From Hormiphora californensis (taxonomy: Eukaryota > Animalia > Ctenophora), in NCBI GenBank assembly GCA_020137815.1, contig CM035359.1, positions 868,001 to 932,000 of the forward strand: a stretch of DNA of 64,000 nucleotides. The letters run 5' to 3'. Below the pieces are notes generated by a model. That model searched no databases and was not told the DNA's origin. It worked only from the letters and a program-made list of their open reading frames with translations. Shown in pieces: positions 14,905-56,601 of the stretch. Numbering within the stretch: position 1 is the stretch's first letter; each line of letters starts with the position of its first letter. A program made the translations under genes and the position numbers.

Positions 14905-17900
14905 CACTTACACTTTGGGGGGGGGGTTTTTCCGGGTTTTGGGGGGGGGGGGGAATTTTTTGGGGGGGAAAAAATTTTTTTAAAAAAAAAAATTTTTTTT
15001 TTTGGGGGGGTTTAAAAAAAAAAAAAAATTTTTTTTTTTAAAAAAATTTAAAAAAAAAAAAATTTTTGGGGGGGAAAAGGGGGGGTTTTTTTTTTTAAAA
15101 AAAAGGGTTAAAAAAAAAAAAAGGGGGTTTCGGGGGTTTTTTTGGGGATTTTTTCCCCTTTTTTTTTTTTGGGGGTTTTTTTTTTTTTTTTGGGGTTTTT
15201 TTTTTTTTTTTTTTGTTTTTTTTTTTTGGGGGGGTTTTTTTTTGGGGGGGGGGTTTTTTTTTTTTTAAAAAACCCAAAAAAAAAAAAACCCCTTGGTTTT
15301 TTTTTCCCCGGGGTTTTTTTTGGCCCCCAAAATTTTTTTTAAACGGGGGGGTTTTGGGGGGAAAAAAAACCCCCCAAAAAAAAAAAAAAAAATTTTTTTT
15401 AAAAAAAAATTTTTTTTAAAAAAAAATTTTTAAAATTTTTTTTTTTTTCCCCCCAATTTTTTTTTCCCCCCCCTTTTTTCCCCCCCCCGGGGGGGTATTT
15501 TGGGGGGGGGGGGGTTTTTGTTTGAATTTTAAAACCCCTTTTTTTAAAAAAAAAAAATTTTTTTAAAAAAAAAAAAATTTTAAAAAAAAACCCAAATTAA
15601 AAATTTTCTTTTAAACCCCCCTTTTTTTTAAAAAAACCCCCAAACCCCCCCCTTTTTTTGGGGGCCCCCCCTTTCTTTTTTCCCCCCCCCCTTTTTTTTT
15701 TCCCCCCGGCCCTTTCCCCTTTTTCCCCCCTTTTTCCCCCCCCTTTTTTTTTTCCCCCCCCTTTTTCCCAATTTTTTTTTTTCCCCCTTTTTTCCCCTTT
15801 TTTGTTTTTAAAAAATTTTTGGGGGCCCCTTTAAATTTTTTTTTTTTTTTTAAAATTTTTTTTGGGGGGGGAAAATTTTTTTTTTTTTTAAAAAAAATTT
15901 TTTTTTCAAAAGGAAACCTTTTTTTTTTTTTGGGGTTTTGGAAAAAAATTTTTTTAAAAAAAAAAAATTTTTTTTTAAACCCCGGGGGTTTTTAAAAATT
16001 TTCCCCCCCAAAAAAAAAAGGGGTTTTTTTTTAAAAAAATTTTTTTTTTTTTTTTTTTTGGGAAAAAAAATTTTTCCCCTTTTTTTTGGGGGAAAAAAAA
16101 AAGGGGATTTTTTATTTTTTTTGGGTTTTGAAAAAATTTTCCCCCCCGGGGGGTCCCCCCCCGGGGGGTTTGGGCAAAAATTTTTTTTCCTTTCCCCCTT
16201 TTTTTAAAAGGGGGGCCCCCCCAAAAATTTTAAAATTTTTGGGCCCCCTTTTTTTAAACTGCCGGTTCCCCAAATAAAAAAAAAAAAAAGGGGGGGGGGG
16301 TTTTTTTTTGGGTTTTTTTAAAAAAAACCCCAAAAACCCCTTTTTGTGGGGGGGGTTTTTAAAAAGGGGGGGGGTTTTTTTCCCCTTTTTTTTTTGGGCC
16401 AAAAAAGGGAAACCCCGGGGCCCTTTTTTCAATTTTTTTTTAAAATTTTCACCTTTTTTTTTTTTTTTTTTTGGGGTAGGGGGAAAAGGGGGGGTTTTTT
16501 TTCCCTTTTTTTTTTTTTTTTCCCCCTTTTGGGGTTTTTAAAAAATTTTAAACCTTTTAAATTTAAATTGGCCTTTTTTTTTTTTTTAAAAAAACCCTTT
16601 AAAAAATTTAAGGGGTTTTTTTTTTTTTTTAAAAAAAAAAAAAATTTTTTTGGGGGCCCCTTTTTTTTTCCCGGAAAAATAAAATTTTTTTTTTGGGGGG
16701 GGAAAAAAATTTTTTTTAAAAAAAAAAAAGGGGTTTTTGGAAAAAAAAAACCTTTTTAATTTTTTTGGGGGTTTTAAAAATTTTTTTAAAAATTTTTTTT
16801 TTCCCCAAAAAAATTTTTTTTTTTCCCCCCCTTTTTTTTTTAAAATTTTTCCCCCCAAAAACCCCCAAAAAACCCCCCTTTTTGGGTTTTAAAAAGGGGG
16901 GGGGGTTTTAACCCTTGGGGGCCCCCAATTTTTTTTTTTTTCCCCTTTGGGGGTTTTTTTTTTTTTAAAAAAATTTTTAAAAAAAAAAAATTTTTTAAAA
17001 AAAAATTTTGGTTTTTTTGGGCTTTGGGGGGGGGAAAAAAACCCCCCCCAAAATTTTTTTTTAAAAAAAAAAAAAAAGGGGGGTTTTTTTGGGGGGGGGG
17101 TTTTTTTTTTTTTCCCCCTTTTAAAAATTTTTTTGGGGGGGGGAAAAATTTAAAAATTTTTTTGGGAATTTTTTTTTTAAAATGTTTTTGGGGGGGGGGG
17201 GTTTTTTTTTTTTGGGGGGGGTTTTTTGGTTTTAAAAAATTTTTTCCCAAAAAAGGGGAAACCTTTTTGGTTTTTCCCCCCTTTTTTGGGGGGGGGGGGG
17301 GGTTTTTTTGGGGGGGGGGGGGGGGGGGAAAAAAAAAAGGGGGGGGGGAAAAAAAAAAGGGGGGGGAAAAAAAAAAAACCCCCCGGGGGGGGGGAAAACT
17401 TTTTTTTTTTAAAAAATTTTTTTTTTTTTTTTTAAAAAAGGTTTTGGCCCCCCCCGGGATTTTTAATAAGAACCAATTTGGGGGGGGGGTTTTTTAAAAT
17501 TTGGGGGGGGAAAATTTTATGGGGTTTAAAAAGGGGGGGTTTTCCCCAAATTTTCCCAAACCCTGACCCAAAAACCCCCAAAAAAAAAAATTTTCCCTTC
17601 CAAAAAAAATTTTTTTAAAAAAATTTTTTTTTTTTTTTTGGGGAAAAAAAAAAAACCTTTTTGGTTTTTCCCTTGGGCCCAAATTTTTTTTCCCAAAAAA
17701 AAAAAAATTTTTTTTTTTTAAAAAAAAATTTTTCCCCCCCCCAATAAAAATTTTTTTTTCCCCCCCCTTTTTAAAAATTTTTTTTAAAAAAAAAAAATTT
17801 TTTTTTTTTGGGTTTTTTAAAAATTTTTTAAAAAAACAGGGTTTTTGATTTAAATTTTAAAATTTTTTTTAAATTTTTTGGGGGGGGGAAAAACCAATTT

Positions 17901-21324: not shown

Positions 21325-22054
21325 TTTATACAATTCGATACAACATGACGTGATATATCTATCTCAAATCATAACAAGAATTATTGCATTATGTATTCAT
21401 AATGCTGTGTTTCCCTGCCCTACCGTTTCACATGTCAGTGACATTGTCACTGCCAACAGGATCAAGGCTTGGTCATAATGTAATGTGAGATGCATACGAT
21501 CTAGCTGTCAGTATACTTCTCACATAGCTTAGAGTTAGCTAACTCCCAATCACATGACACTTGCTAACCAGCTTTTGACATTCCAACTTAACTACTTATC
21601 TAACATCTCATACTCTACTCGCAAGATGAAAATGTGTATGTAACACGCGAAATGCACGGCAGAGCATTTCATGTTTTGTTGAGTGGTGCGCGCACACACG
21701 TCCATCAAACTGTGTCAATGAGGTGTTTGATGAAGGAGTAGCTCGTCACTGTGTGCGCGGCTCTAGTTGCTACACCGTTGCCCTCGCAACGAAAGTGTGA
21801 CCAAAAAATGTCCCTCTACCGATTAGTTAGTATACGAAAATGTCGTTTTCGAATTCTAACCCTGCTATGCCTTTTTACAAAGTAAAAAGGCATCCGGGTG
21901 AATGCCTTCGGCATTCACCCGGGCAGGGAAAAAATTTAAGTTTTAATGAATGATAATCCTGGACTTTCTTTTCATGTCTCAGCTTATCTAATTCTGAAAA
22001 TATACTACAATTGCTAACAATCCCTCCCCAACCGTCTTTTAGCAGAAACCTACT

Positions 22055-23481
22055 ATGCACGGGCGTCTAAAAGTAAAAACCACGGCTGAAAAAGAGGCAG
22101 AACGAGCGAAGGAACGAGAGAAAAAGAAGGCAGTATATCTGGGAGCGATGGCTAAAATTCGACACCTTTACAACTCCGGAGATCGTTCAGAGAAGCTGTT
22201 GGTTCTTCTTGGCCAGGTTCTGGAGCGGGTACCTGAGTTTACAACTCTGTGGAACTGGAGACGGACTGTGTTGGGAGAACTACTGAAGAAGAGAGAGGAG
22301 GTCGGGATTGTAGATAAGGAGAAGGATAAACAACTTCCCTCTTCGGAGATGAAGAAAGAGGATGTGAAGGAGGACGATTGTGAGGATCAGAAGGAATGAT
22401 AATAACGAAGATGATAACGCGATAGCTGGAAAAATGGAGAAAGAACGGGTTGAGTACCTAATCGAAGGAGAGAAGAAAGAGAAAGAACGTGTTGAGCAAG
22501 CTAATCGAAGGGGAGAAGAAGTTTGTCGTGAGGTGTCTTGAGGTCAATCCCAAGGCCTATGCTCTCTGGCTACACAGGCGATGGCTTGTCTGCCTCCATC
22601 CCACAGGTGAGAGGATTGTTAGCCCTTTAATTGGGCCCTAAAGAGCTACACCCTTCATGTCAACTGTTCTATCGTTTCGGAATACAGTAATGCGATCTGA
22701 TATCAGTCGAACCCCGATTAAACGGAATAATTGGTAACGAAATTACCCTCGTAGAGGGGGGATATTGCTAATTCCCTATTATATATCGGGGGAAATCTAT
22801 CCATCCGGGGATTCCGCTAAATCGTGGTCTGGTAGTTCAGTGTATTTTGATGGTTTACTAAATTCTATTTCCAGATGAGGTGATAAAAAGGGAAATTGAT
22901 TTGTGTAATCTCTACCTGAAATTTGATGAACGCAATTTTCACTGCTGGGACTATCGCAGGTAAAAAAACAACTGTTATCCATCTAGTTTGTACTTCTATG
23001 AGCCAGGCTAATATAGACTATAGACTTGTTAGATCTGCCCTTACCACCCTCACTCTCATTATAGCTGAAGACGTGATACACAGTGATCTCGAAAGCTTGT
23101 GTCAATATTTTATGTTTTAGCTATTATCTTTCATACAGACCTCAGACTTTAAATGACACCGTTCTGTCGTGCGGCAGAGTTTGGTACGCTACAAGCTAGA
23201 GCCACACACACACACACCCTATATATATCGGGGGAAGATTATCCTGCCGTTAAATCGGGGTTCGACTGCAGTAGTAACTAACTCAATTATTCCCCTGAAT
23301 AGGTTTGTTGTTAACCTCGGTGGTATCAGTATGGTTGAGGAATTGACGACAACAACAGCGCTGATTGAACGGAACTTCTCCAATTATTCCGCGTGGCATT
23401 ATAGGAGCACCCTACTGGACACGGGCAGTGCTGATACTGTGAACAAGGAGCTGGAATGGACGCAAAACGCTTACTTCACAG
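22055..23481 (+). CDS. RABGGTA: Rab geranylgeranyltransferase alpha subunit, 5' part (exons 22055-22606, 22875-22959, 23303-23481)
   Basis: [14 protein letters not shown] start and PFTA repeats [49 protein letters not shown]. Two apparent 1-nt frameshifts near 22395 and 22497. Downstream exons not located. Confidence 0.92.
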
Positions 23482-23819
23482 GTAAAATTAAAACTTTAAT
23501 TAATTAATTAATAACATTAATTAATAACAGAAATCAGGAAGCGTAATTAATTTATATACAGCATCAAAGAAAATGAGTTGGGTTACATTTCTTTTATTTC
23601 TTGATAAAACTCCCTTTCGCGCATTATATACATATGGTCACCTTTGCTTGTCAGCACGGTGACTATCAGACATGAAACGTATCTATGAAAAGTTAGTCAA
23701 ACCTTGATTCATTTTATTCAAGAGTATTTTGCTTGGTAAACCAAGATTCCGATAAAGCAAGTTTCCAGTTAATAGTCTATACCTCAGCTCCGATCGATTT
23801 TTGCCCAACAGGGACATAA

Positions 23820-24324: not shown

Positions 24325-24420
24325 CATAATTGATAATTGTATGTTTTGATGTTCTCAGCCATACATAGTTTGCGATCTGCATCTGTTTGTTCTGGCCTTT
24401 ACAATCGGCTGGTGAAGGTC

Positions 24421-24568
24421 TGACTCACACAATCACCATGGTGACGGTCTGACTCACAATCACCATGGTAACGGTCCGACTCACAATCACCATGGTGACG
24501 GTCTGACTCACAATCACCATGGTGACAGTCTGACTCACAATCACCATGGTGACAGTCTGACTCACAAT
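24421..24568. repeat. 27-bp tandem repeat (~5 copies) at the GPCR 3' end
   Basis: ctcacaatcaccatggtgacggtctga units. Confidence 0.9.
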
Positions 24569-25633
24569 CGGCTGGTGACGGTCACATCCTCGGTTCGGCG
24601 GGCACATGGCATTACCTTCCGTTTTCCAATTGCCTCGGTGATGAAATACACAATAGGGTTGACAGCTGAGAGAAAGATGGGAAGAATAACATAAAATACA
24701 GTTCCACTCCATTTGAATATACAAACTCGCGCTGAGCATGATGACCTATCTGAGTTATTATCTCCCTTTTCCCCTGAGATATTATCTCCCTTTTCTCCTT
24801 TGTTACGACCTGCTCGAGTGCTGTTTGTTGTACCTGCACTGTCGGTTATTGTTGTCCAAAGGCTGAATGTGTATGCGATAAGGAAGACAAGTGACACTGT
24901 GTGAAGAAGACTTCCCGCGTTCATTAAGAAGGATCCTGTACGTTATCCTTGTCGTGTCTCTCCCAGATTGACTTGCTGCCATTCCACCTGATTTCCTCAG
25001 ATGTGATATGGTGAGAAAGATGAAGGCCACGCCAGCAACTTGTAGTATTGACGGTATAGAGAGACTCATTAGCATTGAACCTAGCATGGCGGTTTTACTA
25101 CCTGCATCACTGCTAAATGGGTTCCAGTTAACTGCCATCACATTGTTAACTGACCACCTGATGTTACCAAGATGTACAGAATAGAAGCAGATCATGATGA
25201 GGACTTGGGTGATTGAGACACCGGAACATATGGCAAAAAAACGTTTCTTTGGTTGCATTCGTAGGGGGAACCGAAGTTGAAAGTACCGTGCCGCAAGCAT
25301 TATTGCGGTCAAAAGGTTTGGAATCAGGATTAAACTGCTTAGGATTACTGAGTAGGATCTTTGTACTGCATCTGTTTCACCCAAATCTCTAGACGGGTCA
25401 TCTTCACTTTCTGGTAATATGTACCGGAAAGCCGCGTAGATTTGAATGATACTGCTGATAAGATTTAGTAGGGCAATGAGGACGCTGGTTACTCTGTGGA
25501 CGGTGAAAGGAGCACCCAGGTGCCGGTACAGAACCAGTGGGTTAAGGATCAGCGAGATCAACCCGCACACAACCACAAATAGAAACACACCGAAATCTGG
25601 GAAGGTTGTTCCTCCGTCAGATTGAATACTCAT
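24562..25633 (-). CDS. intronless divergent class A GPCR (one apparent frameshift near 24925)
   Basis: ORF 24803-25666 carries TM1-5 (LILNPLV, LAARYFQLRFP). The overlapping frame 24562-24924 supplies TM6-7 (AVNPIVY). Removing one base at ...CTTCTTAATGAAC joins them. Confidence 0.8.
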
Positions 25634-31981: not shown

Positions 31982-34900
31982 CTCTTCAGGTTTAACCTCC
32001 TCGTCTCCCTCTTTCACCTCCTCTTCTTTGGCAGGTTCGGCAGCTTCCTCAGCGGCAGCAGGTTCGGCAGGTTCTCCCTCTTCAGCTGGGGCTACCTCCT
32101 TCTTCTTAGGGAACTTGATGTTGAACCTGGGGAGGGGAGTAATTAATTAGCAACTAATTAGCAATTAATAAGCAATTAATTAGTTTTAAATCGAACGGGT
32201 TGATACTTGATGAAAGTTAAAAGTGGGAGGGTTAATTTAGTAGGAGAGTCATCTGACAGATTGTAACAAGATCTTAGTTTTACAACCCTGAATGTATATG
32301 GGGGAAGGGTGGAGAAGTGACTAATTGAAGGCCAGCTCTGACAGTTCACATCTAAGTTCTAGAACACTCTAAAATCCAAAAACCAACATTTCAAAGAAAA
32401 GCCACAGCTTGGTTAATTCTTTACAGATTAATTCTTCACAGATTAGGGCAGATAAATATACGTTCTAGAACATTCAAAACAACCAAGGCGACATACACAC
32501 GAACATGTTGATTTGAGGTAAAACACCCTCATCCCTCACACTCCACCCCCCCCCCCACCCCGGCCCACATCACCACTTCTGGGTTGTTCTACTCACTTGC
32601 TCATGAAGCCCTTCTTCTTTGATGGTGTCTCACACTCCACCCCCCCCCCCTCGCTGGTCTCACATCACCCCCTCCCAGGTACTCACTTGCTCATGAAGCC
32701 CTTCTTCTTTGAGGGGTACGGTGGCAGATTCCGGCCAACTGTTTTTTTAGTCAAGTGAAATATTTTTGCTTGAAGTTTTATAAAAATTTTATTTCAAAAT
32801 AAAAATAAACATGTCCTTAAAATTATTGGCCGGAATCTGCCACGCGAGTGGCAGATCTCGGCCAAGATTCTAAAAAAACCTTGGCCAGAATCTGCCAACC
32901 ACGTGGCAGATTCCGGCCAACAAACTGAAACTTACTTATATCAAAGCGAAAACCGCTGTACCCGACTAATTTTGATACGCTGAATCACGTAAGCAACTTT
33001 TCCAATCCCCTCAGAGGTCGGGAAAGTGTCCTAATTGAGCATAATAGGGTCTAATTGACCCCACTTACAACTTTTCACCTGGAAACGATAGACGCTTATG
33101 TGAAGGCACTTTTCCGACTAATTTTGATAAGCTGAATCACGTAAGCTATTTTTCAAAGCCCCCCGAGGTCGGAAAAGTGCCCTAATTGAGCAATTAAGGC
33201 CAATTAGACCAAATTATACTTAATTAAGCCAAATTCCCGACCTCGGAGGGCTTGGAAAAGTTGCTTACGTGATTCAGCGTATCAAAATTAGTCGGAAAAG
33301 TGCCTTCACATAAGCGTCTATCGTTTCCAGGTGAAAAGTTGTAAGTGGGGTCAATTAGACCCTATTATGCTCAATTAGGACACTTTCCCGACCTCTGAGG
33401 GATTGGAAAAGTTGCTTACGTGATTCAGCGTATCAAAATTAGTCGGGTACAGCGGTTTTCGCTTTGATATAAGTAAGTTTCAGTTTGTTGGCCGGAATCT
33501 GCCACGTGGTTGGCAGATTCTGGCCAAGGTTTTTTTAGAATTTTGGCCGAGATCTGCCACTCGCGTGGCAGATTCCGGCCAATAATTTTAACGATATGTT
33601 TATTTTTATTTTGAAATAAAATTTTTATAAAACTTCAAACAAAAATATTTCACTTGATTGAAAAAACTCTTGGCCGGAATCTGCCACCGTAGAGGGGGTC
33701 TCGCACTCCACCTCCCTCCCCCTCCCCCTCCCGGCCCACATAACCACTGGGTTGTTCTACTCACTTGCTCATGAAGCCCTTCTTCTTTGAGGGAGTCTCA
33801 CACTCCACCCCCTCCCCCTCACTGGTCTCACATCACCCCCTCCCAGGTACTCACTTGCTCATGAAGCCCTTCTTCTTTGAGGGTGTCTCACACTCCACCC
33901 CCTCCCCCTCACTGGTCTCACATCACCCCCTCCCATATCACTCACTTGCTCATGAAGCCCTTCTTCTTTGAGGGAGTCTCACACTCCACCCCCTCCCCCT
34001 CACTGGTCTCACATCACCCCCTCCCAGGTACTCACTTGCTCATGAAGCCCTTCTTCTTTGAGGGGGTCTCACACTCCACCCTCTCCCCCTCACTGGTCCC
34101 ACATCACCCCCTCCCAGGTACTCACATCACCCCCTCCCAGGTACTCACTTGCTCATGAAGCCCTTCTTCTTTGAGGGAGTCTCACACTCCACCCCCTCCC
34201 CCACACTGGTCTCACATCACCCCCTCCCAGGTACTCACTTGCTCATGAAGCCCTTCTTCTTTGAGGGAGTCTCACACTCCACCCCCTCCCCCACACTGGT
34301 CTCACATCACCCCCTCCCAGGTACTCACTTGCTCATGAAGCCCTTCTTCTTTGAGGGAGTCTCACACTCCACCCCCTCCCCTCACTGGTCTCACATCACC
34401 CCCTCCCAGGTACTCACTTGCTCATGAAGCCCTTCTTTTTTATGGTGTCTCACACTCTACCCCTCCCCCTCACTGGTCTCACATCACCCCCTCCCATGGG
34501 TACTCACTTGCTCATGAAGCCCTTCTTCTTTGAGGGAGTCTCACACTCCACCCCCTCCCCCTCACTGGTCTCACATCACCCCCTCCTGGGTACTCACTTG
34601 CTCATGAAGCCCTTCTTCTTTGAGGGTGTCTCACACTCCACCCCCTCCCCCTCACTGGTCTCACATCACCCCCTCCCAGGTACTCACTTGCTCATGAAGC
34701 CCTTCTTCTTTGAGGGAGTCTCACACTCCACCCCCTCCCCCTCACTGGTCTCACATCACCCCCTCCCAGGTACTCACTTGCTCATGAAGCCCTTCTTCTT
34801 TGAGGGAGTCTCACACTCCACCCCCCCCCCCCTCGCTGGTCCCACATCACCCCCTCCCAGGTACTCACTTGCTCATGAAGCCCTTCTTCTTTGATTGTGT

Positions 34901-37900
34901 CTCACACTCCACCACCCTCCTCACTCACCCCTCAACTATGTTGGGGTGTCCACACTCACCCCCCCCCCCCCACGGTCTCACATCACACCCCCTCCCAGGT
35001 ACTCACTTGCTCATGAAGCCCTTCTTTTTGAGGGAGTCTCACACTCCACCCCGCTCCCCCCCTTCCCCTCACTCTCACGTCACACCCCCTCCCAGTCACT
35101 CACTTGCTCATGAAGCCCTTCTTCTTTGAGGGAGTCTCACACTCCACCCCCTCTCCCTCACTGGTCTCACATCACCCCCTCCCAGGTACTCACTTGCTCA
35201 TGAAGCCCTTCTTCTTTGAGGGAGTCTCACACTCCACCCCCTCCCCCTCACTGGTCCCACATCACCCCCCTCCCAGGTACTCACTTGCTCATGAAGCCCT
35301 TCTTCTTTGAGGGGGTCTCACCCTCCACCCTCTCCCCCTCACTGGTCCCACATCACCCCCTCCCAGGTACTCACATCACCCCCTCACAGGTACTCACTTG
35401 CTCATGAAGCCCTTCTTCTTTGAGGGAGTCTCACACTCCACCCCCTCCCCCTCACTGGTCTCACATCACCCCCTCCCAGGTACTCACTTGCTCATGAAGC
35501 CCTTCTTTTTTGAGGGAGTCTCACACTCCACCCCCCTCCCCTCACTGGTCCCACATCACCCCCTCCCAGGTACTCACATCACCCCCTCCCAGGTACTCAC
35601 TTGCTCATGAAGCCCTTCTTCTTTGAGGGAGTCTCACACTCCACCCCCCTCCCCTCACTGGTCTCACATCACCCCCTCACAGGTACTCACTTGCTCATGA
35701 AGCCCTTCTTCTTTGAGGGAGTCTCACACTCCACCCCCTCCCCCTCACTGGTCTCACATCACCCCCTCCCAGGTACTCACTTGCTCATGAAGCCCTTCTT
35801 CTTTGAGGGGGTCTCACACTCCACCCTCTCCCCCTCACTGGTCCCACATCACCCCCTCCCAGGTACTCACATCACCCCCTCACAGGTACTCACTTGCTCA
35901 TGAAGCCCTTCTTCTTTGATGGTGTCTCACACTCCACCCCCCTCCCCCTCCCCCTCCCGGCCCACATAACCACTGGGTTGTTCTACTCACTTGCTCATGA
36001 AGCCCTTCTTCTTTGATGGTGTCTCACACTCGGCTGGCGTGGTTGGCTCTTCCTCACCCTCCTTTCCTTCCTCAGGGGCAGCAGCTTCCTCAGCAGCAAC
36101 CTCTTCTGTCTTCTCCTCTTCAGCAGGGGCGGCTTCCTGAAGAGAACGGGGTTTAGTGGGTGAATATTATCGTGATCAGGAACCGACCGATAGAAGTAAA
36201 CAACCAATCAGAGCTGATTATTTAGGTCACGTGACTGGTTATCAGCCAATCAGGGACCAGTTTTTCCTGATTCGGTCGGTTCCTGATCGTGATGTTAAGA
36301 AACCAACAAGCAAAGCAAGATAATGCAAACATGTGAGAAAAGGTTGGAAAACAAGACTCAGCGCATTCAAACACTGTGGGTCACGTGCGTACTTCAGGAT
36401 ATAATACGTGATTATTTTCTAACCCTTCTTAGTGAGGGCCGAGCAAGGCAATGAACTAGGGGGGGGGGGGGCCGGCTGAAGTTTTTGAAGTTTTTGAAGT
36501 CAACTTCAAAAACTTCAAAGAGAAACTTAGGGTGGAAAACTTCAAAAACTTCAAAAACTTCAAAAACTCATATCTCCTAAACCGTTGGAGATAGGCCCTA
36601 TGTTGCTTCATAACTCTTATATAAACTCGAGGCCGCTGATGATTTTGGTGTCCATATTTTTTTCACTACTCCCTTAATAAAAAATTTGCATTTTGAGAAA
36701 CTGGCAAAAAGAGTGTGGCCCCAAAAAAATTTTTGAAAATTTACTTCATAATTTTTAAACACTTTCTTAGCATTTTCTAGGCAACTTTTTGAGTTACAGA
36801 ATGAAAATGAAATCTGTTTTTACAAAAAATTTAAATTTTTTACACCAAATTGTGCCATGGATTTCATGGCTAGAAATCATTGTAAATATCCTAATTTGTG
36901 GTAGAAAAAGGGCAGACAAGGAAGGATAACTTTGCCACAATATGTATTAAGCATGAAACTAACCTAAACAAGTGTAATAATAGTCACTGATAGCATAAAA
37001 AAGTAGTTTAGAGTTTTTGAAGTTTTTGAAGTTTTTGAAGTCAACTTCAAAAACTCAAAAAGTAGGGTGGAAAACTTCAAACTTCAAAAACTTCAGCCGG
37101 CCCCCCCCCCCCCCCATGAACTATAGTATGAAAAGGGAGGGTGCTTTTGGTAGTTGGTAGTGAGGGGAGCTTCAAATCAAGGATGATTAATTAATTAATT
37201 AATCTAGTGCAGTGTGTGATTAATTACATGCAAAGTAAAATCTCAGAAAGATCAAAAACAGCAAAGATAAATTTTCGGAAAGGAACGGGAAGGGGAAGAG
37301 AGAGAGAGAGAGAGCCGCGGCAGGGGGGAGTATCTTACCGACTGCGGGGTCTCATCAGCAGGTGGTGCAGTGGTAAAAGTTTGATCGACAATCGCAGTGA
37401 GCTCTTCAGCCATGCCCGATGTTACTACAGTTGATCTACGAACTTCTTCTCTCTCTTCTGCTGGAACAGCTTCCTCAATCACAATTTCAGGTTCTGAGAC
37501 CTTGATCTCCTCCTGTTTAGGAGATTCCTCATCCTGTTTAGGAGATTCCGTAACTTCCTCCTCAGCCACTGGTTCAGGATCCTTTTCAGCAATAACAACA
37601 GGTTCAATTAGCTCTGCTGGTTTTACAGATTCAATTGATGTCTCTTCGACTGGTTCCTCCTCGGTGGGTTCAATTGATTTTGGTTCCTCAACTTGTTCAG
37701 GTTCTTGTTCAATTGATTTTGGTTCCTCAACTTGTTCAGGTTCTTGTTCAATTGATTTTGATTCCTCAGCTTGTTCAGGTTCTTCAATTGATTCCGGCTC
37801 GACAGTTTCATCAGTCGTCTCATTACTAAGTTCTGCTTCGTTACTGGGTTCTGGTTCAGTACTAACTTCTACTTCGTTACTGGGTTCTGGTTCAGTACTA

Positions 37901-40011
37901 ATTTCTGGTACAACCTCTGCGACATCCACTGGAGCTTCTGGTTCTGTGGCCTCTGGTTCTGTTTCTGGTTCTGGTTCTGTGACATCTGTTTCTGCTGCTT
38001 TTGGTTCTGATACCTCTGGCTCTGCTGCAGATTCATTAGTGATCTCGAGTGAATCAATGTTGCTGCACTGTAGAGGAAAGGAAGAAGAGTATGAAAAACG
38101 TATGAAAAACGTGTGAATTGTGAATGAATTGTGATTTATATTGATTTTGTTGAACTTTTACACATTTTAGCACAAGAACATGCGCACGATATAACACACG
38201 CACACACACTTGGCAAACTCACGCACGGGACATGCTTTGGAACCAACTAGTAATCCACCAAGAGAGAGATGGTTGAATCCTAATTAGTTAATTAATCAAT
38301 TACTAACCTCAGTGGCGGGTGCTTCCTCTGCAGCGGCGGGAGCCTCCTCGACCTCAGGGGAGACTGGCTCAGTGGGCTGTGTAGAGGGGGTTGTTTAGTT
38401 TAGAAATTATACAGCTGACGTTTGTATAGTATACCAAATCAAAGTGTGATTATTTAACGGTGTGTGATAACGGTGAGATATAGGTGTGATCAGTGATAGA
38501 GTTGTGATAGAGTTGTGTTAGAGATGTGATAGAGTTCTGATAGAGTTGTGTTAGAGATGTGATAAAGGTGTGATAGAGGTGTGATAGAGGTGTGTGATCA
38601 GTGATAGCGGGGTATGATAACGGTGAGATATAGGTGTGATCAGTGATAGAGTTGTGATAGAGTTGTGTTAGAGATGTGATAGAGTTCTGATAGAGTTGTG
38701 TTAGAGATGTGATAAAGGTGTGATAGAGGTGTGATAAAGGTGTGATAGAGGTGTGATAGAGGGGTATGATCTGCAGTGATAGCGGGGTATGATCTGCAGT
38801 GATAGCGGGGTATGATCTGCAGTGATAGCGGGGTATGATCTGCAGTGATAGCGGGGTGTGATCTGCAGTTACCTCAACAGGTTCGCTCTCCTTGGGAGAG
38901 TCAGTATCCTTCTCCTCAGGTTCGCTCACTTTCTCCTCCTCACTGTCACCATTCACACCGTTAACATCATCAACAACAGGAGTGCTAATGGCAGCTGCAG
39001 CCTCTACGGGCTCTTCCTCGACCTGGGGAGAGTGGGGTTTGGGACCAAGTAAACAACCAATCAGAGCTCGTTATTTAGGTCACGTGACTGCTTATCAGCC
39101 AATCAGGGACCAGCATTTCCTGATTCGGTCGGTTCCTGGGTTTGGTGAACTTTGATCTCAATTTCCTCTCTCGGATACACATCAAATTTCTAATATTGCC
39201 AACTATCTCTCCCACATTCTCCCTCTCTCTCCCACATTCTCTCTCTCTCTTGACAGGTATTGAGGGAACCTTCCCAACGCTGGAGAGTAGCCAGAATATT
39301 ATTACATATATTGGGAGGACAATTTCGGAGGCAGAAAGTTAGAGGGAGAAATATTGAGAAATAGAGGCCAGGGGTAGAGGGGAAAGGGAGATACTAAATT
39401 GCTAGAGGGTGTGGTATCTAATAAATTTAACATTTCGTAAAATACGTGCTGACAATATAAGTGAGCGATGGACCGTGAGAAATCGATGTACCACTTCATA
39501 TAATATATATTGAGGGAGATGGACAGATAGAAACTGATGGAGAGAAACTAATAAAAACTGAGGCAGATAGCTGATAGAGAGAGAAACTGAGGGAGATAGA
39601 GACCAGTCGACGAGTCTGATTTTATAGTCATTGTATGGGAAAAAGTTATGTAATACCGCCTGCACCATACTACGTACAACCACATCCGCGATGTGGTTAT
39701 GTATTGATGACAACCCCTTGATGACCCATAACACCCTCAACCAATTAATCAATTACCTCAACCAATTAACCAATTAACTCAACCAATTAATCAATTAACT
39801 CAACCAATTAACCAATTATTTAATTACCTTGTCATCAGTGGGCTCAACGATGGGGTACTTCACATCGGTTGTAATTTATGAGGTTGTGGGGCCTGCGGGT
39901 GTGTGATCCCTTTATATTGTATTAATAGAATCAATATTGGTACTTTTTGAGCAGGGGTTTTGTGACGTCACAGGGCAGCTCAACGACTGGGGTACTTTCA
40001 ACATCGGCCAT
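31982..40011 (-). CDS. highly acidic Glu/Pro/Ala-rich disordered protein with one basic-hydrophobic MARCKS-like motif (exons ~40011-39828, 39022-38873, 38376-38308, 38067-37339, 36136-35991, 32126-31982; last exon not resolved)
   Basis: Spliced translation MADVESTPVVE..PTDDK|VEEEPVEAAAA..|PTEPVSPE..|CSNIDSLE..TPQS|EAAPAEEEK..ETPSKKKGFMSK|FNIKFPKKKEVAPAEEGE..KPEE with GT-AG introns and consistent phases. The first exon is garbled by a noisy duplication. Confidence 0.8.
32535..36030 (-). repeat. 90-bp tandem array (~25 copies) of an exon 3' end plus splice donor
   Basis: Each unit on the minus strand contains gagtgtgagacNccNtcaaagaagaagggcttcatgagcaa|GTGAGT, identical in kind to the true exon end at 35991. 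Confidence 0.95.
32717..33691. mobile_element. ~975-bp palindromic element, IS3EU-like termini
   Basis: gagggg|TACGGTGGCAGA...TCTGCCACCGTA|gagggg. A 6-bp TSD with TAY..RTA ends; other array units show the empty site. Confidence 0.75.
36177..36285 (-). mobile_element. hAT-like MITE copy
   Basis: 8-bp TSD atcgtgat. Confidence 0.85.
36459..37115. mobile_element. TIR element with poly-G/poly-C termini and 8-bp TSD
   Basis: atgaacta|G13 CCGGCTGAAGTTT...AAACTTCAGCCGG C15|atgaacta, with subterminal gaagttttt repeats. Confidence 0.8.
38460..38868. repeat. compound minisatellite starting right at a splice donor
   Basis: 23-bp gatctgcagtgatagcggggtat units followed by gtgataga-type units. Confidence 0.9.
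39042..39138 (-). mobile_element. hAT-like MITE copy (one end truncated)
   Basis: Same internal sequence. Confidence 0.8.
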
Positions 40012-40292
40012 TGTATTTAGAGGTTGCTTGGTGGTGCGGGTGTGTGATCCCTATTAATTGAAATATTAATTAGAATTCAATAATTGGAAGGGTGTAATGA
40101 ATAATTAGAAAACTTGTAATTCAGGGGCGCAGGTAATCGTGTAATTAGTGATTGGTCGGTAATGGTTTTGGATCGCGAAAAAACACCAAAGTTAAAAAGC
40201 TAGGCACTAATGCTAAATGCACTAGCCTTGAAAATGATTGGATTAGACGAAAATTGAAGGAACGATTTTAGAAAAAGAAGCAATTTGATCAG

Positions 40293-53701: not shown

Positions 53702-56601
53702 CAGTCGAACCCCGATTTAACGGCACCCTCGGGGGAAAGGGTTTTGTCCGTTAAACACCCCCTGTCCGGAGTACTGCTTTTTTTTCTTCTGTGTGTGTGT
53801 CGCAACACTGGAATCGTGCGCGTTCAGGGCATGTTTCAAGTTCCACGTGTCATAGCGTAGCCCCTAATTAGATTAACGAATAATTATTCACACTAGGTTC
53901 AAGCCAAAACAATTCCTAATACCGTAGATCAAACCCGGACTTGATTGGATAAACACAGGCTAGGCTATGGGCTCTTTTGTAAAAGTCGTCATGATTCTGT
54001 ACACCACAGAATCTGTCAACCTAGGCAGCTTCTCCGGCTCACTGAAAGAGTAATATCCCGAAATTCAAAAAAAGGCGAGATATGCCCTCTAGACAATTGT
54101 CTGCTGAAGAAGCTGGTGTAATTTTTTTCAAGATCCGACGTAAGACGTAGCCAGTTAGCTGTAACATTTGAAATCATGCTCATAATTCGTGTGGTGCGTC
54201 ACAGTGCTGACACATTGGATGTTTAGAGAGTACTGCTTTTTTCCGGAGTACTGCTTTTTCTCTCTCTGCCAAGAGGGCGCGTAGGGGGCTGTGTGTGGGG
54301 ACTGTGAATGTGTTGGAGTGTGGTGTATCAAGGCAGTGTGTGTGGTATTCTGATTTCTGTCTCTTACACGACTTAGTGTACCGGATATTATAAGAGTAGA
54401 CTGTTATTATACATGACACATAATGCTTCATATTCCCCTGAGCTGTCCCTACCGGCGACCCCACCCCTCATCTGCTCCATCTCTCAGCTAACCTACCCCT
54501 CATCTACTCCAACTACCAGGCACCAGCTATCCTACCCCTCATCTCCCTCATCTACTCCATCTCTCAGCTATCCTACCCCTCATCTATACTTCATCTCTCA
54601 GATATCCTACCCCTCATCTACGCCATCTCTCTGCTACCCTGCCCCTCATCTACTTGATCTCTCAGCTACCCTGCCCCTCATCTACTTGATCTCTCAGCTA
54701 CCCTACCCCTCATCTACTCGATCTCTCAGCTACCCTATCCCGTATATACTCTATCTCTCAGCTACCCTTCCCCCTCCCCATCTACTAAATCTCTCAGCTA
54801 CCCTGCCCCTCATCTCAGCAGTCAGCTACCTTACCCCTCATCTACTTCAACTCTCAGGTACCCTACCCCTCATATAATACATCTCTCAGATATCCTACCC
54901 CTCATCTATTCCATCTCTCAGCTATCCTACCCCACAGCTACCATATTCCTCAGGTACCCCAATACTCCATCCTGCTAGATAACTGTAAGATCTTATTAGA
55001 TGCTTCCCCCAGGATACCCACCAGACCAGGTTGTAAGGGTACCTGAAAGGTTCTAAGGAGTATCTACACAGTTATCTAGCAGGATGGAGTATTGGGGTAC
55101 CTGAGGAACATGGTAGCTGTGGGGCAGAATAGCTGAGAGATGGAATAGATGAGGGGTAGGATATCTGAGAGATGTATTATATGAGGGGTAGGGTACCTGA
55201 GAGTTGAAGTAGATGAGGGGTAAGGTAGCTGACTGCTGAGATGAGGGGCAGGGTAGCTGAGAGATTTAGTAGATGGGGAGGGGGAAGGGTAGCTGAGAGA
55301 TAGAGTATATACGGGATAGGGTAGCTGAAAGATCGAGTAGATGAGGGGTAGGGTAGCTGAGAGATCAAGTAGATGAGGGGCAGGGTAGCAGAGAGATGGC
55401 GTAGATGATGGCTAGGGTAGCTGAGAGATGGAGTAGATGAGGGGTAGGATACCTGAGAGATGAAGTATAGATGAGGGGTCTGGGGTAGGGTAGCTGAGAG
55501 ATGGAGTAGATGAGGGGCACTGGGAAGGGTAGCTGAGAGATAGAGTAGATAAGGGATAGGGTAGCTGAGAGATGGAGTAGATGAGGGGTAGGGACCCGAC
55601 TAGGGTATCTGAGAGATGGAGTAGATGACTGATCATGAGGGGTAGGATATCTGAGAGATGCAGTAGATGAGGGGAAGGATAGCTGAGAGATGGAGTAGAT
55701 GAGGGAGATGAGGGGTAGGATAGCTGGTGCCTGGTAGTTGGAGTAGATGAGGGGTAGGTTAGCTGAGAGATGGAGCAGATGAGGGGTGGGGTCGCCGGTA
55801 GGGACAGCTCAGGGGAATATGAAGCATTATGTGTCATGTATAATAACAGTCTACTCTTATAATATCCGGTACACTAAGTCGTGTAAGAGACAGAAATCAG
55901 AATACCACACACACTGCCTTGATACACCACACTCCAACACATTCACAGTCCCCACACACAGCCCCCTACGCGCCCTCTTGGCAGAGAGAGAAAAAGCAGT
56001 ACTCCGGAAAAAAGCAGTACTCTCTAAACACCAATGTGTCAGCACTGTGACGCACCACACGAATTATGAGCATGATTTCAAATGTTACAGCTAACTGGCT
56101 ACGTCTTACGTCGGATCTTGAAAAAAATTACACCAGCTTCTTCAGCAGACAATTGTCTAGAGGGCATATCTCGCCTTTTTTTGAATTTCGGGATATTACT
56201 CTTTCAGTGAGCCGGAGAAGCTGCCTAGGTTGACAGATTCTGTGGTGTACAGAATCATGACGACTTTTACAAAAGAGCCCATAGCCTAGCCTGTGTTTAT
56301 CCAATCAAGTCCGGGTTTGATCTACGGTATTAGGAATTGTTTGGGCTTGAACCTAGTGTGAATAATTATTCGTTAATCTAATTAGGGGCTACGCTATGAC
56401 ACGTGGAACTTGAAACATGCCCTGAACGCGCACGATTCCAGTGTTGCGACACACACACAGAAGAAAAAAAAGCAGTACTCCGGACAGGGGGTGTTAAATC
56501 GGGGTGTCCGCTAAATCGGGGTCAAATACTGTTGATTTTCTATATCGGGGGAAGATTAGGCTGCCGTTAAATCGGGGGGCCGCTAAATCGGGGTCCGACT
56601 G
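53702..56601. mobile_element. family-B MITE split by a large nested foldback element
   Basis: TA|CAGTCGAACCCCG... at 53702 and ...GGGTCCGACTG|TA at 56601. Confidence 0.85.
53756..56493. mobile_element. 2.7-kb foldback element, CAC...GTG termini, 5-bp TSD, minisatellite-bearing arms
   Basis: ttaaa|CACCCCCTGTCCGG...CCGGACAGGGGGTG|ttaaa. Arms of ~1.2-1.4 kb surround an ~80-bp spacer (~54988-55066); mirror ORFs 54180-/55786+. Confidence 0.9.

What the first reader, a model, noticed from the sequence alone, without database searches (positions are those of the whole stretch)
32535..36030. Array of ~25 copies of an exon end plus its splice donor: candidate mini-exon array or donor-competition switch
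Seen: the intron that splits the only basic motif of the acidic protein is filled with a 90-bp unit. Each unit copies the last ~41 coding nt (ECETPSKKKGFMS-aa) and the donor GTGAGT. On the minus strand a typical unit parses as a 33-nt GT...CAG segment plus a 57-nt phase-2/phase-2 segment, which would add in frame N-EGEGVECETPSKKKGFMS. The commonest variants within the copied coding part are synonymous (Thr ACA/ACT/ACC, Pro CCA/CCC, Lys AAG/AAA), although a few units have indels or missense changes. Read-through of any donor meets AAG|TGA, a stop. Inference: either units splice as tiny exons that multiply a polybasic, phosphorylatable motif, or 25 decoy donors tune full-length versus truncated/NMD product by copy number. 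Against the exon model, the 33-nt segment is very short and has no pyrimidine tract.
Basis: partly seen in the sequence, partly recalled or inferred. Interest (0 to 1): 0.8.

Follow-up and report, generated by a model that had tools for sequence, protein, structure and literature searches.

The report
Exon-end echoes fill comb-jelly intron
In a comb-jelly gene the last 41 bases of one exon and its splice signal are repeated 25 times in the next intron; the one RNA assembly seen splices from the first signal, so the copies are likely untranslated members of a known repeat type, and their mostly silent differences likely come from swapping sequence with working versions of the exon.

Summary
Observation confirmed. 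There are 25 tandem copies of the last 41 coding bases plus GTGAGT, and a 975-bp palindromic transposon interrupts one unit. A 9-nt microhomology at both ends explains the unit's borders. The synonymous bias is real: all 4 shared changes in the copied block are silent (p 0.0007-0.003), while the intron-derived part diverged about 30%. The mini-exon reading is weak. The unit CAG has 20-25% pyrimidines upstream and no branch motif, against 60-90% at the 5 real acceptors. Shared changes in the intron-derived 16 nt of the proposed exon are 4 missense and 1 silent. One spliced contig from another animal joins the first donor straight to the next exon, and its live exon carries ACT, the array's majority state. 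Best reading: a 'mirage'/exon-stuttering minisatellite (F7, IFI6, amphioxus, chicken) whose copies likely descend from working exon alleles. A toy model reproduces this only with fast exchange among short arrays. The scan noted the same pattern before, in this genome and in others.

The parts
35991..36136 (-). Live 146-nt coding exon of an acidic Glu/Ala/Pro-rich protein; its last 41 nt (36031-35991) are the block copied in every unit
   Evidence: Open frame. A spliced contig of run X1 covers it with 3 differences in 147 letters and joins it to exons 38308 and 32126.
35985..35990 (-). Authentic splice donor GTGAGT
   Evidence: The contig's loose end at 35989 is the downstream exon.
32535..36031 (-). 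Junction-spanning minisatellite: 25 copies of (41-nt exon end + GTGAGT + G-rich intron start), about 90 nt per unit, bounded by the 9-nt direct repeat GAGTGTGAG at 36031-36023 (exon) and 32543-32535 (intron after the last copy)
35894..35990 (-). Unit 1, original type: same intron start as unit 24 and as the tail after the last donor copy; no in-frame CAG
33765..35893 (-). Units 2-23, derived type (majority block ACT CCC; G-rich spacer, with CCAG in most units); units 10-11 (35103-34869) look noisy
   Evidence: 5 of 25 units are exactly identical and 20 are distinct.
32717..33691 (.). 975-bp palindromic element with no long ORF, inserted into the copied block of unit 24; TA..TA ends and 6-bp target duplication CCCCTC, the signature reported for IS3EU/GingerRoot
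   Evidence: Arms 293 nt, 97% complementary; ends and duplication; signature from PMC10045372 passages
32535..32637 (-). Terminal block copy (identical to the live exon end) with donor at 32596 and the original-type intron start
31982..32126 (-). Next coding exon (FNIKFPKKKE...), completing the basic/aromatic motif; real acceptor with CTAAT motifs and a C-rich tract
37339..38067 (-). 729-nt in-frame cassette exon of the same gene
   Evidence: One X1 contig joins exon 38308 to it and another skips it.
38308..38376 (-). Upstream 69-nt coding exon
   Evidence: Joints 36135-38307 and 38067-38308 with CT..AC ends
38873..39022 (-). Upstream 150-nt coding exon (predicted from frame and splice signals only)

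Best explanation
This is a minisatellite of 25 copies of an exon end plus its splice donor, likely born by a tandem duplication between two 9-nt direct repeats that flank the junction, and likely removed whole as part of the intron because the spliceosome likely takes the first donor. The copies differ from the exon mostly at silent positions, most likely because they are not independent dead copies. The live exon end is itself unit 0 of the array, so unequal exchange would repeatedly copy working exon alleles into the array and would put array copies back into the exon, where selection would remove any that change the protein. In a very variable species this would leave a mosaic of two junction types, and a recent burst would then multiply one of them. 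Shown: anatomy, microhomology, silent bias, direct junction in one other animal, and a shared ACT state between that animal's exon and the array majority. Inferred: origin by microhomology, no use of downstream donors, and the exchange history.
For: Borders: the unit starts exactly at GAGTGTGAG, which occurs in the exon 41 nt before the donor and again in the intron after the last copy. The first unit and the tail keep the original intron start while internal units are homogenised; this pattern of excluded boundary units is described for amphioxus mirages (PMC3087553 passages). Splicing: a 281-nt contig of run X1 (depth 8.35) runs exon 38308 -> whole exon 36136-35991 -> exon 32126, with unique exon sequence directly upstream of the block. 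No acceptor in the units: pyrimidines at -23..-4 are 0.20-0.25 in the 21 derived units with a CCAG, against 0.60-0.90 at the 5 real acceptors. The branch-like motifs searched were absent from the one typical unit scanned and present at the real acceptors (one of those motifs was taken from a real acceptor). Only 12.5% of 1754 YAG sites on this strand are as purine-rich. Silent bias limited to the copied block: shared variants are 4 silent and 0 missense in the block, but 1 silent and 4 missense in the intron-derived 16 nt of the would-be exon (Fisher p 0.04, classified by hand from the alignment, test). Link to live alleles: X1's exon reads ACT at 36020, the state of 15 of the 24 copies scored, and 2 of its 3 differences fall inside the 41-nt block. 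Diversity is high: X1 differs from the window by 7/105, 9 plus gaps and 15/118 in cassette-exon pieces, and a relative has about 3.2% heterozygosity (PMC8527503 passages). Toy model: with selection on unit 0 only, the ratio of non-silent to intron variation in untranslated copies fell to 0.36-0.63 and to 0.16 for short, fast-exchanging arrays, against 0.86-1.17 and 0.94 without selection.
Against: The RNA evidence is one contig from one metagenomic run. Contigs drop rare forms, and that animal's allele may not carry the array. The toy model gave no depletion for a long array under symmetric exchange (ratio about 1.0) and only 0.44-0.76 in the other regimes. The data ask for 0.23 or less (0 seen, 12.8 expected), which only one regime out of those tried reached. 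The two unit types differ by about 30% in the intron-derived part (13 of 39 columns, alignment-dependent), deep for alleles. The second X1 difference inside the block was not displayed, so identity with the majority unit is not shown. 18 of 25 units do keep a 57-nt in-frame segment behind a CAG that the original type lacks.
Confidence: 0.62

Rival explanations
1. Mini-exon ladder: derived units are spliced in as 57-nt exons, each adding one more copy of the first half of the basic motif, and are under direct protein-level selection.
For: 18 of 25 units give a 57-nt stop-free in-frame segment. All 4 shared block variants are silent (p 0.0007-0.003). Shared length changes (the 23-nt duplication and a 2-nt insertion) fall in the would-be intron. 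The CAG arose in the amplified type. The assembly has indel errors nearby (frameshift in the neighbouring gene), so singleton frameshifts may be false.
Against: Purine-rich acceptor context with no branch motif. 33-nt spacing between donor and CAG in most units. Shared variants in the exon's own first 16 nt are mostly missense, including charge reversals. Frame fit is a single 1-in-3 event inherited by all units. The only spliced contig is the direct junction.
Confidence: 0.1
2. Purely neutral minisatellite; the silent pattern is chance or run slippage (the variants extend C or A runs), partly sequencing error.
For: Only three sites carry shared variants, and three of the four changes lengthen a base run. 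Microhomology and G-richness (G4Hunter 1.96) would account for birth and growth.
Against: Restricting to neighbour-copying changes still gives p 0.003. The block changed at 2 of 41 sites and the donor hexamer at 0 of 6 while the adjacent intron-derived part changed at 13 of 39 columns. X1's live exon shares the array's ACT.
Confidence: 0.15
3. Donor-competition rheostat: copy number tunes how often a downstream donor is used, which gives a stop (AAG|TGA) and a truncated or degraded transcript.
For: Any downstream donor use meets a stop. The hexamer GTGAGT is invariant in all 26 places. In human IFI6 and CBS two pseudo-sites are used besides the real one (PMC1557585 introduction).
Against: No such product was seen. 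In F7, LMNB2 and PDGF only the first donor is used (same paper). It does not explain silent-only changes 27-30 nt upstream of the donor. Some leakage is likely, but nothing points to regulation.
Confidence: 0.08
4. Assembly expansion.
For: The window has low-quality stretches (15-18 kb), a doubled first exon and noisy units 10-11.
Against: Linked variants recur in separate units (113-nt type in 4 units), and a transposon with a clean 6-bp target duplication sits inside a unit. The exact copy number may still be off.
Confidence: 0.04

Closest known systems
Human minisatellites whose first monomer spans an exon-intron boundary: F7 IVS7 (37 bp, 5-9 copies), 6-16/IFI6 (25 pseudo-sites), CBS IVS13, LMNB2 (100 bp, 10-15 copies), PDGF intron 4 (81 bp, 16-18 copies). 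PMC1557585: abstract, introduction and passages seen
   Same: The first unit spans the junction, the donor is reiterated, unit size and copy number are similar, and the first donor is used.
   Different: Here 41 coding nt are copied (4 in F7), so a codon-level signal can be read. Read-through hits a stop at once. A transposon sits inside one unit.
Amphioxus 'mirages' (Adh3, globins BflGb6/BflGb9, troponin C, PGBD5). PMC3087553 and PMC3902484: passages seen
   Same: Tandem copies of an exon-intron boundary in a highly polymorphic marine invertebrate, with concerted evolution inside, boundary units excluded, and normal splicing reported.
   Different: This one has more copies than the globin and PGBD5 cases and lies in a ctenophore. 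The passages seen report no synonymous bias ('synonymous' has 0 occurrences in PMC3902484).
'Exon stuttering' on chicken dot chromosomes (236 introns in 115 genes). PMC12954441: passages seen
   Same: Local repeat expansion copies a lateral part of an exon with its splice site through the intron.
   Different: That study links it to dot chromosomes and shows length variation between birds. Its main text has 0 occurrences of 'synonymous' or 'purifying'; supplements were not read.
IS3EU/GingerRoot DNA transposons (for the inserted element). PMC10045372: passages seen
   Same: TA..TA termini and 6-bp target duplication.
   Different: 975 bp, almost wholly palindromic, with no long ORF, so assignment rests on the ends alone.
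MARCKS/AKAP12/GAP-43-type acidic membrane-binding proteins (for the host protein; recalled, from no call)
   Same: Very acidic Glu/Ala/Pro-rich chain with one short basic, Phe- and Ser-containing patch.
   Different: No Pfam match for any of 4 exons and no homologue found. This is a resemblance of composition only.

Membership tests
Exon-intron-boundary minisatellite (mirage / F7-type / exon stuttering) | Tandem repeat whose first monomer spans the exon-intron boundary | tested here: met
   The unit starts 41 nt inside the exon and runs into the intron.
Exon-intron-boundary minisatellite (mirage / F7-type / exon stuttering) | Splice site reiterated in the intron | tested here: met
   25 further GTGAGT donors in the same exonic context.
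Exon-intron-boundary minisatellite (mirage / F7-type / exon stuttering) | Mature mRNA uses the first donor; copies are excluded | tested here: inconclusive
   Direct junction seen in one contig of one run. Minor forms cannot be excluded, and that animal's intron is unknown.
Exon-intron-boundary minisatellite (mirage / F7-type / exon stuttering) | Internal homogenisation with boundary units left out | tested here: met
   Unit 1 and the tail are original type. 23 of the 24 later units are derived or noisy-derived; unit 24 is a mosaic.
Exon-intron-boundary minisatellite (mirage / F7-type / exon stuttering) | Length polymorphism between alleles | not testable with these tools
   No genome is held and no second genomic copy was found.
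Tandem mini-exon array | Each unit has a usable acceptor (branch point, pyrimidine tract, YAG) | tested here: not met
   Pyrimidines 0.20-0.25 against 0.60-0.90 at real acceptors; no branch-like motif in a typical unit.
Tandem mini-exon array | Frame-preserving, stop-free segment | tested here: met
   18 of 25 units.
Tandem mini-exon array | Protein-level constraint over the whole proposed exon | tested here: not met
   Silent bias in the 41 copied nt, but 4 missense and 1 silent shared variants in the other 16 nt.
Tandem mini-exon array | Inclusion in mRNA | tested here: inconclusive
   Only the direct junction was seen; contigs cannot show absence.
IS3EU/GingerRoot non-autonomous element (insert) | TA..TA termini with terminal inverted repeats and 6-bp target duplication | tested here: met
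   criterion from PMC10045372.
IS3EU/GingerRoot non-autonomous element (insert) | Related transposase or autonomous partner with the same ends | not testable with these tools
   No ORF of 110 aa or more in the element, no other copy in the window, no genome held.
MARCKS-like proteins (host) | Sequence match to the family | tested here: inconclusive
   0 Pfam families for 4 exons searched separately; the basic motif is split by this intron and could not be searched whole.

The most novel reading that the evidence does not exclude
The derived units are true 57-nt mini-exons recruited from a junction duplication, so splicing or array length sets how many basic, serine-bearing patches an acidic comb-jelly protein carries: a repeat-length dial on membrane binding. 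Short of that, the array would be a readable case of untranslated intron copies kept protein-clean only by exchange with the live exon (my estimate about 0.6, interest about 0.45).
Probability: 0.1. Interest if true: 0.8.

Novelty: new member of a known kind. Interest (0 to 1): 0.3.

Why it matters
The architecture is known, and in the best-studied cases it is harmless. What is worth keeping is the codon signal: an apparently untranslated repeat shows a protein-level selection signature. If exchange with the live exon is the cause, a synonymous bias in intronic exon copies is not evidence that they are translated, which is a trap for annotation. Such arrays would also be records of other working alleles. 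I did not find this point in print in two searches, but the scan has noted it on other DNA. The locus is also a natural test of first-donor choice in an early-branching animal.

Tried and rejected
No whole genome is held, so neither a genome-wide survey of junction arrays nor a species intron-size floor could be computed. The run search listed no holder on record as RNA. X1 was used only after it showed spliced GT..AG joints; X2 gave only a dispersed repeat and an unrelated match. No contig covered unit-specific sequence at 32656-32716, which is not evidence of absence. The joint 32124-32595 looks like use of the last donor but is the same contig as: its loose end is unique live-exon sequence, so it was rejected as downstream-donor use. 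Homologue searches for the host protein found nothing; one search used a 36-residue acidic piece without the basic motif, a weak query. Pfam gave 0 families for 4 of 4 exons. The junction motif had 0 matches in metagenome and viral contigs, and 599 candidates for the downstream exon gave no relative. No other exon of this gene has intronic echoes in the window. Toy simulations of a long array under symmetric or exon-side-biased exchange did not reproduce the silent bias. These runs were small (1-8 seeds), and the ratios are rough. The IFI6 paper was not held, so that case is cited through PMC1557585. A search for ctenophore plus MARCKS listed 2 unrelated papers. No supplements were read; those of PMC12954441 and PMC3087553 may bear on the 'not in print' claim. 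The two noisy units (10, 11) were left out of the shared-variant counts (23 of 25 used).
Full report
Organism and gene. The neighbouring genes match a Pleurobrachia bachei gene model at 77-87% amino-acid identity over most exons; the next-best hit for the exon searched was 66%. The window is therefore from a close relative in the comb jellies. The host gene lies on the minus strand. Exons 39022-38873, 38376-38308, 38067-37339, 36136-35991 and 32126-31982 join in frame without stops. The protein is about one-third glutamate, and its only net-positive windows straddle the intron in question. It has no Pfam match and no homologue was found; a likeness to MARCKS-type proteins is recalled only.

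Anatomy. The authentic donor (35990) is followed by 25 copies of the last 41 coding bases plus GTGAGT. The unit begins at GAGTGTGAG, a 9-mer present in the exon (36031-36023) and again in the intron just after the last copy (32543-32535). A duplication between these two repeats gives exactly this unit, so its borders need no functional explanation (the mechanism is inference). There are two unit types. The original intron start occurs in unit 1, unit 24 and the tail; a derived, more G-rich start occurs in the rest. Four units carry a 23-nt internal duplication with linked variants. Unit 24 holds a 975-bp palindromic element with TA..TA ends and a 6-bp target duplication, the signature given for IS3EU/GingerRoot (PMC10045372 passages). 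These features argue that the array is genomic and not an assembly expansion, although units 10-11 look noisy and the window has poor stretches.

Splicing evidence. One metagenomic run (X1; RNA by library label and by spliced joints) holds a 281-nt contig that runs from exon 38308 through the whole exon 36136-35991 into exon 32126. Unique exon sequence lies directly upstream of the block, so the first donor was used. A second contig includes the 729-nt exon that the first skips. This shows presence of the direct junction only: contigs drop rare forms, and that animal's intron is unknown.

Mini-exon test. 18 of 25 units offer a stop-free 57-nt segment behind CCAG; 4 are out of frame, 2 lack the CCAG and 1 is interrupted. 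Because the units are copies, the frame fit is one event. The 20 bases before that CAG are 20-25% pyrimidine and a typical unit has no branch-like motif, whereas the five real acceptors of this gene are 60-90% pyrimidine.

The synonymous signal. It is real. Only 20 of 123 possible single changes in the block are silent, yet all 4 shared variants are silent (p 0.0007-0.0027 by transition weight). With singletons it is 5 silent of 7-8 substitutions (p 0.002-0.018), or of 10 events with deletions (p 0.014-0.055). Unit 1 and a majority unit differ at 13 of 39 intron-derived columns plus indels, at 0 of 6 in the donor, and at 2 of 41 in the block, both silent. At the intron-derived rate 12.8 shared non-silent changes were expected and 0 were seen (23 of 25 units used). 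Run slippage does not remove it (p 0.003). The bias ends at the edge of the copied block: in the 16 intron-derived bases of the proposed exon the shared variants are 4 missense and 1 silent (Fisher p 0.04).

Explanation. The pattern follows descent from the exon, not the proposed exon's borders. X1's live exon reads ACT where the window's exon reads ACA, the state of 15 of the 24 copies scored. From the counts, a second of its three differences also lies in the block, but its letter was not shown. So array states occur in working alleles. A toy population model with selection on unit 0 alone gave no depletion of non-silent variants in a long array under symmetric exchange (ratio about 1.0) and 0.44-0.76 in other low-diversity regimes. 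It gave 0.36-0.63 with high diversity and faster exchange, and 0.16 for short fast-exchanging arrays, against about 0.8-1.2 without selection. The data need 0.23 or less. The mechanism can work, but it requires a long phase with few copies in a large, variable population and a recent burst. Near-identity of the derived units fits a burst (5 of 25 exactly alike), and high diversity fits X1's divergence and a relative's 3.2% heterozygosity (PMC8527503 passages). The 30% gap between the two intron types remains deep for alleles and is the weakest point.

Comparison. Junction-spanning minisatellites are described in human F7, IFI6, CBS, LMNB2 and PDGF, where the first donor, or the first three, are used (PMC1557585: abstract, introduction, passages). 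They are described as 'mirages' in amphioxus (PMC3087553, PMC3902484 passages) and as 'exon stuttering' in chicken (PMC12954441 passages). This locus meets the structural features; length polymorphism could not be tested. Two searches did not list a paper on synonymous bias in such copies. Earlier notes of this scan report the same bias in this genome and in two others. They are unchecked and not counted as support; two of them gave the amphioxus and chicken papers as leads.

Verdict. A real, well-formed member of a known repeat kind, most likely spliced out whole. The silent bias is genuine and most likely records exchange with working exon alleles (0.62). Translated mini-exons are not excluded (0.10). 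Interest 0.3.

Noticed in passing
window 37339-38067 (-): 729-nt acidic cassette exon, included in one X1 contig and skipped in another; X1 also differs from the window by a 36-nt deletion and an 18-nt insertion in it.
   Followed up: partly
window 31982 (-) and downstream: An X1 contig continues 109 nt past exon 32126-31982 into a further exon that is not in the window on either strand with up to 3 mismatches. The gene's end lies in a gap, in a bad stretch or more than 32 kb away, in which case the two neighbouring genes would be nested.
   Followed up: partly
window 39815-40075 (-): The likely first exon and its upstream sequence appear twice in tandem; the second copy, which holds the donor, has several small deletions. 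Probably an assembly artefact, possibly another exon echo.
   Followed up: partly
window 24410-24583 (-): A 27-bp minisatellite (6.4 copies) at the 3' end of the membrane-protein ORF 25636-24560; each unit contains ATT followed by GTGAGT, so it may be a second junction-type array. The P. bachei model has the unrepeated form.
   Followed up: partly
window 24914-24930 (-): Frameshift relative to the P. bachei model in the same ORF, likely a consensus error.
   Followed up: no
window 22046-23486 (+): Exons of a prenyltransferase alpha subunit (PF01239; a hit is named geranylgeranyl transferase type-2 alpha), convergent with the membrane-protein ORF.
   Followed up: partly
window 14980-17860: About 3 kb of stretched homopolymer runs, typical of failed base-calling; not real sequence as written.
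   Followed up: no
window 38462-38869 and 39736-39826 (-): Two other introns of the same gene begin with tandem repeats (23/11-bp and 21-bp units) a few bases after the donor, without copying the exon.
   Followed up: no
window 54458-55790: A 32-bp degenerate repeat and its flank occur as a large inverted pair.
   Followed up: no
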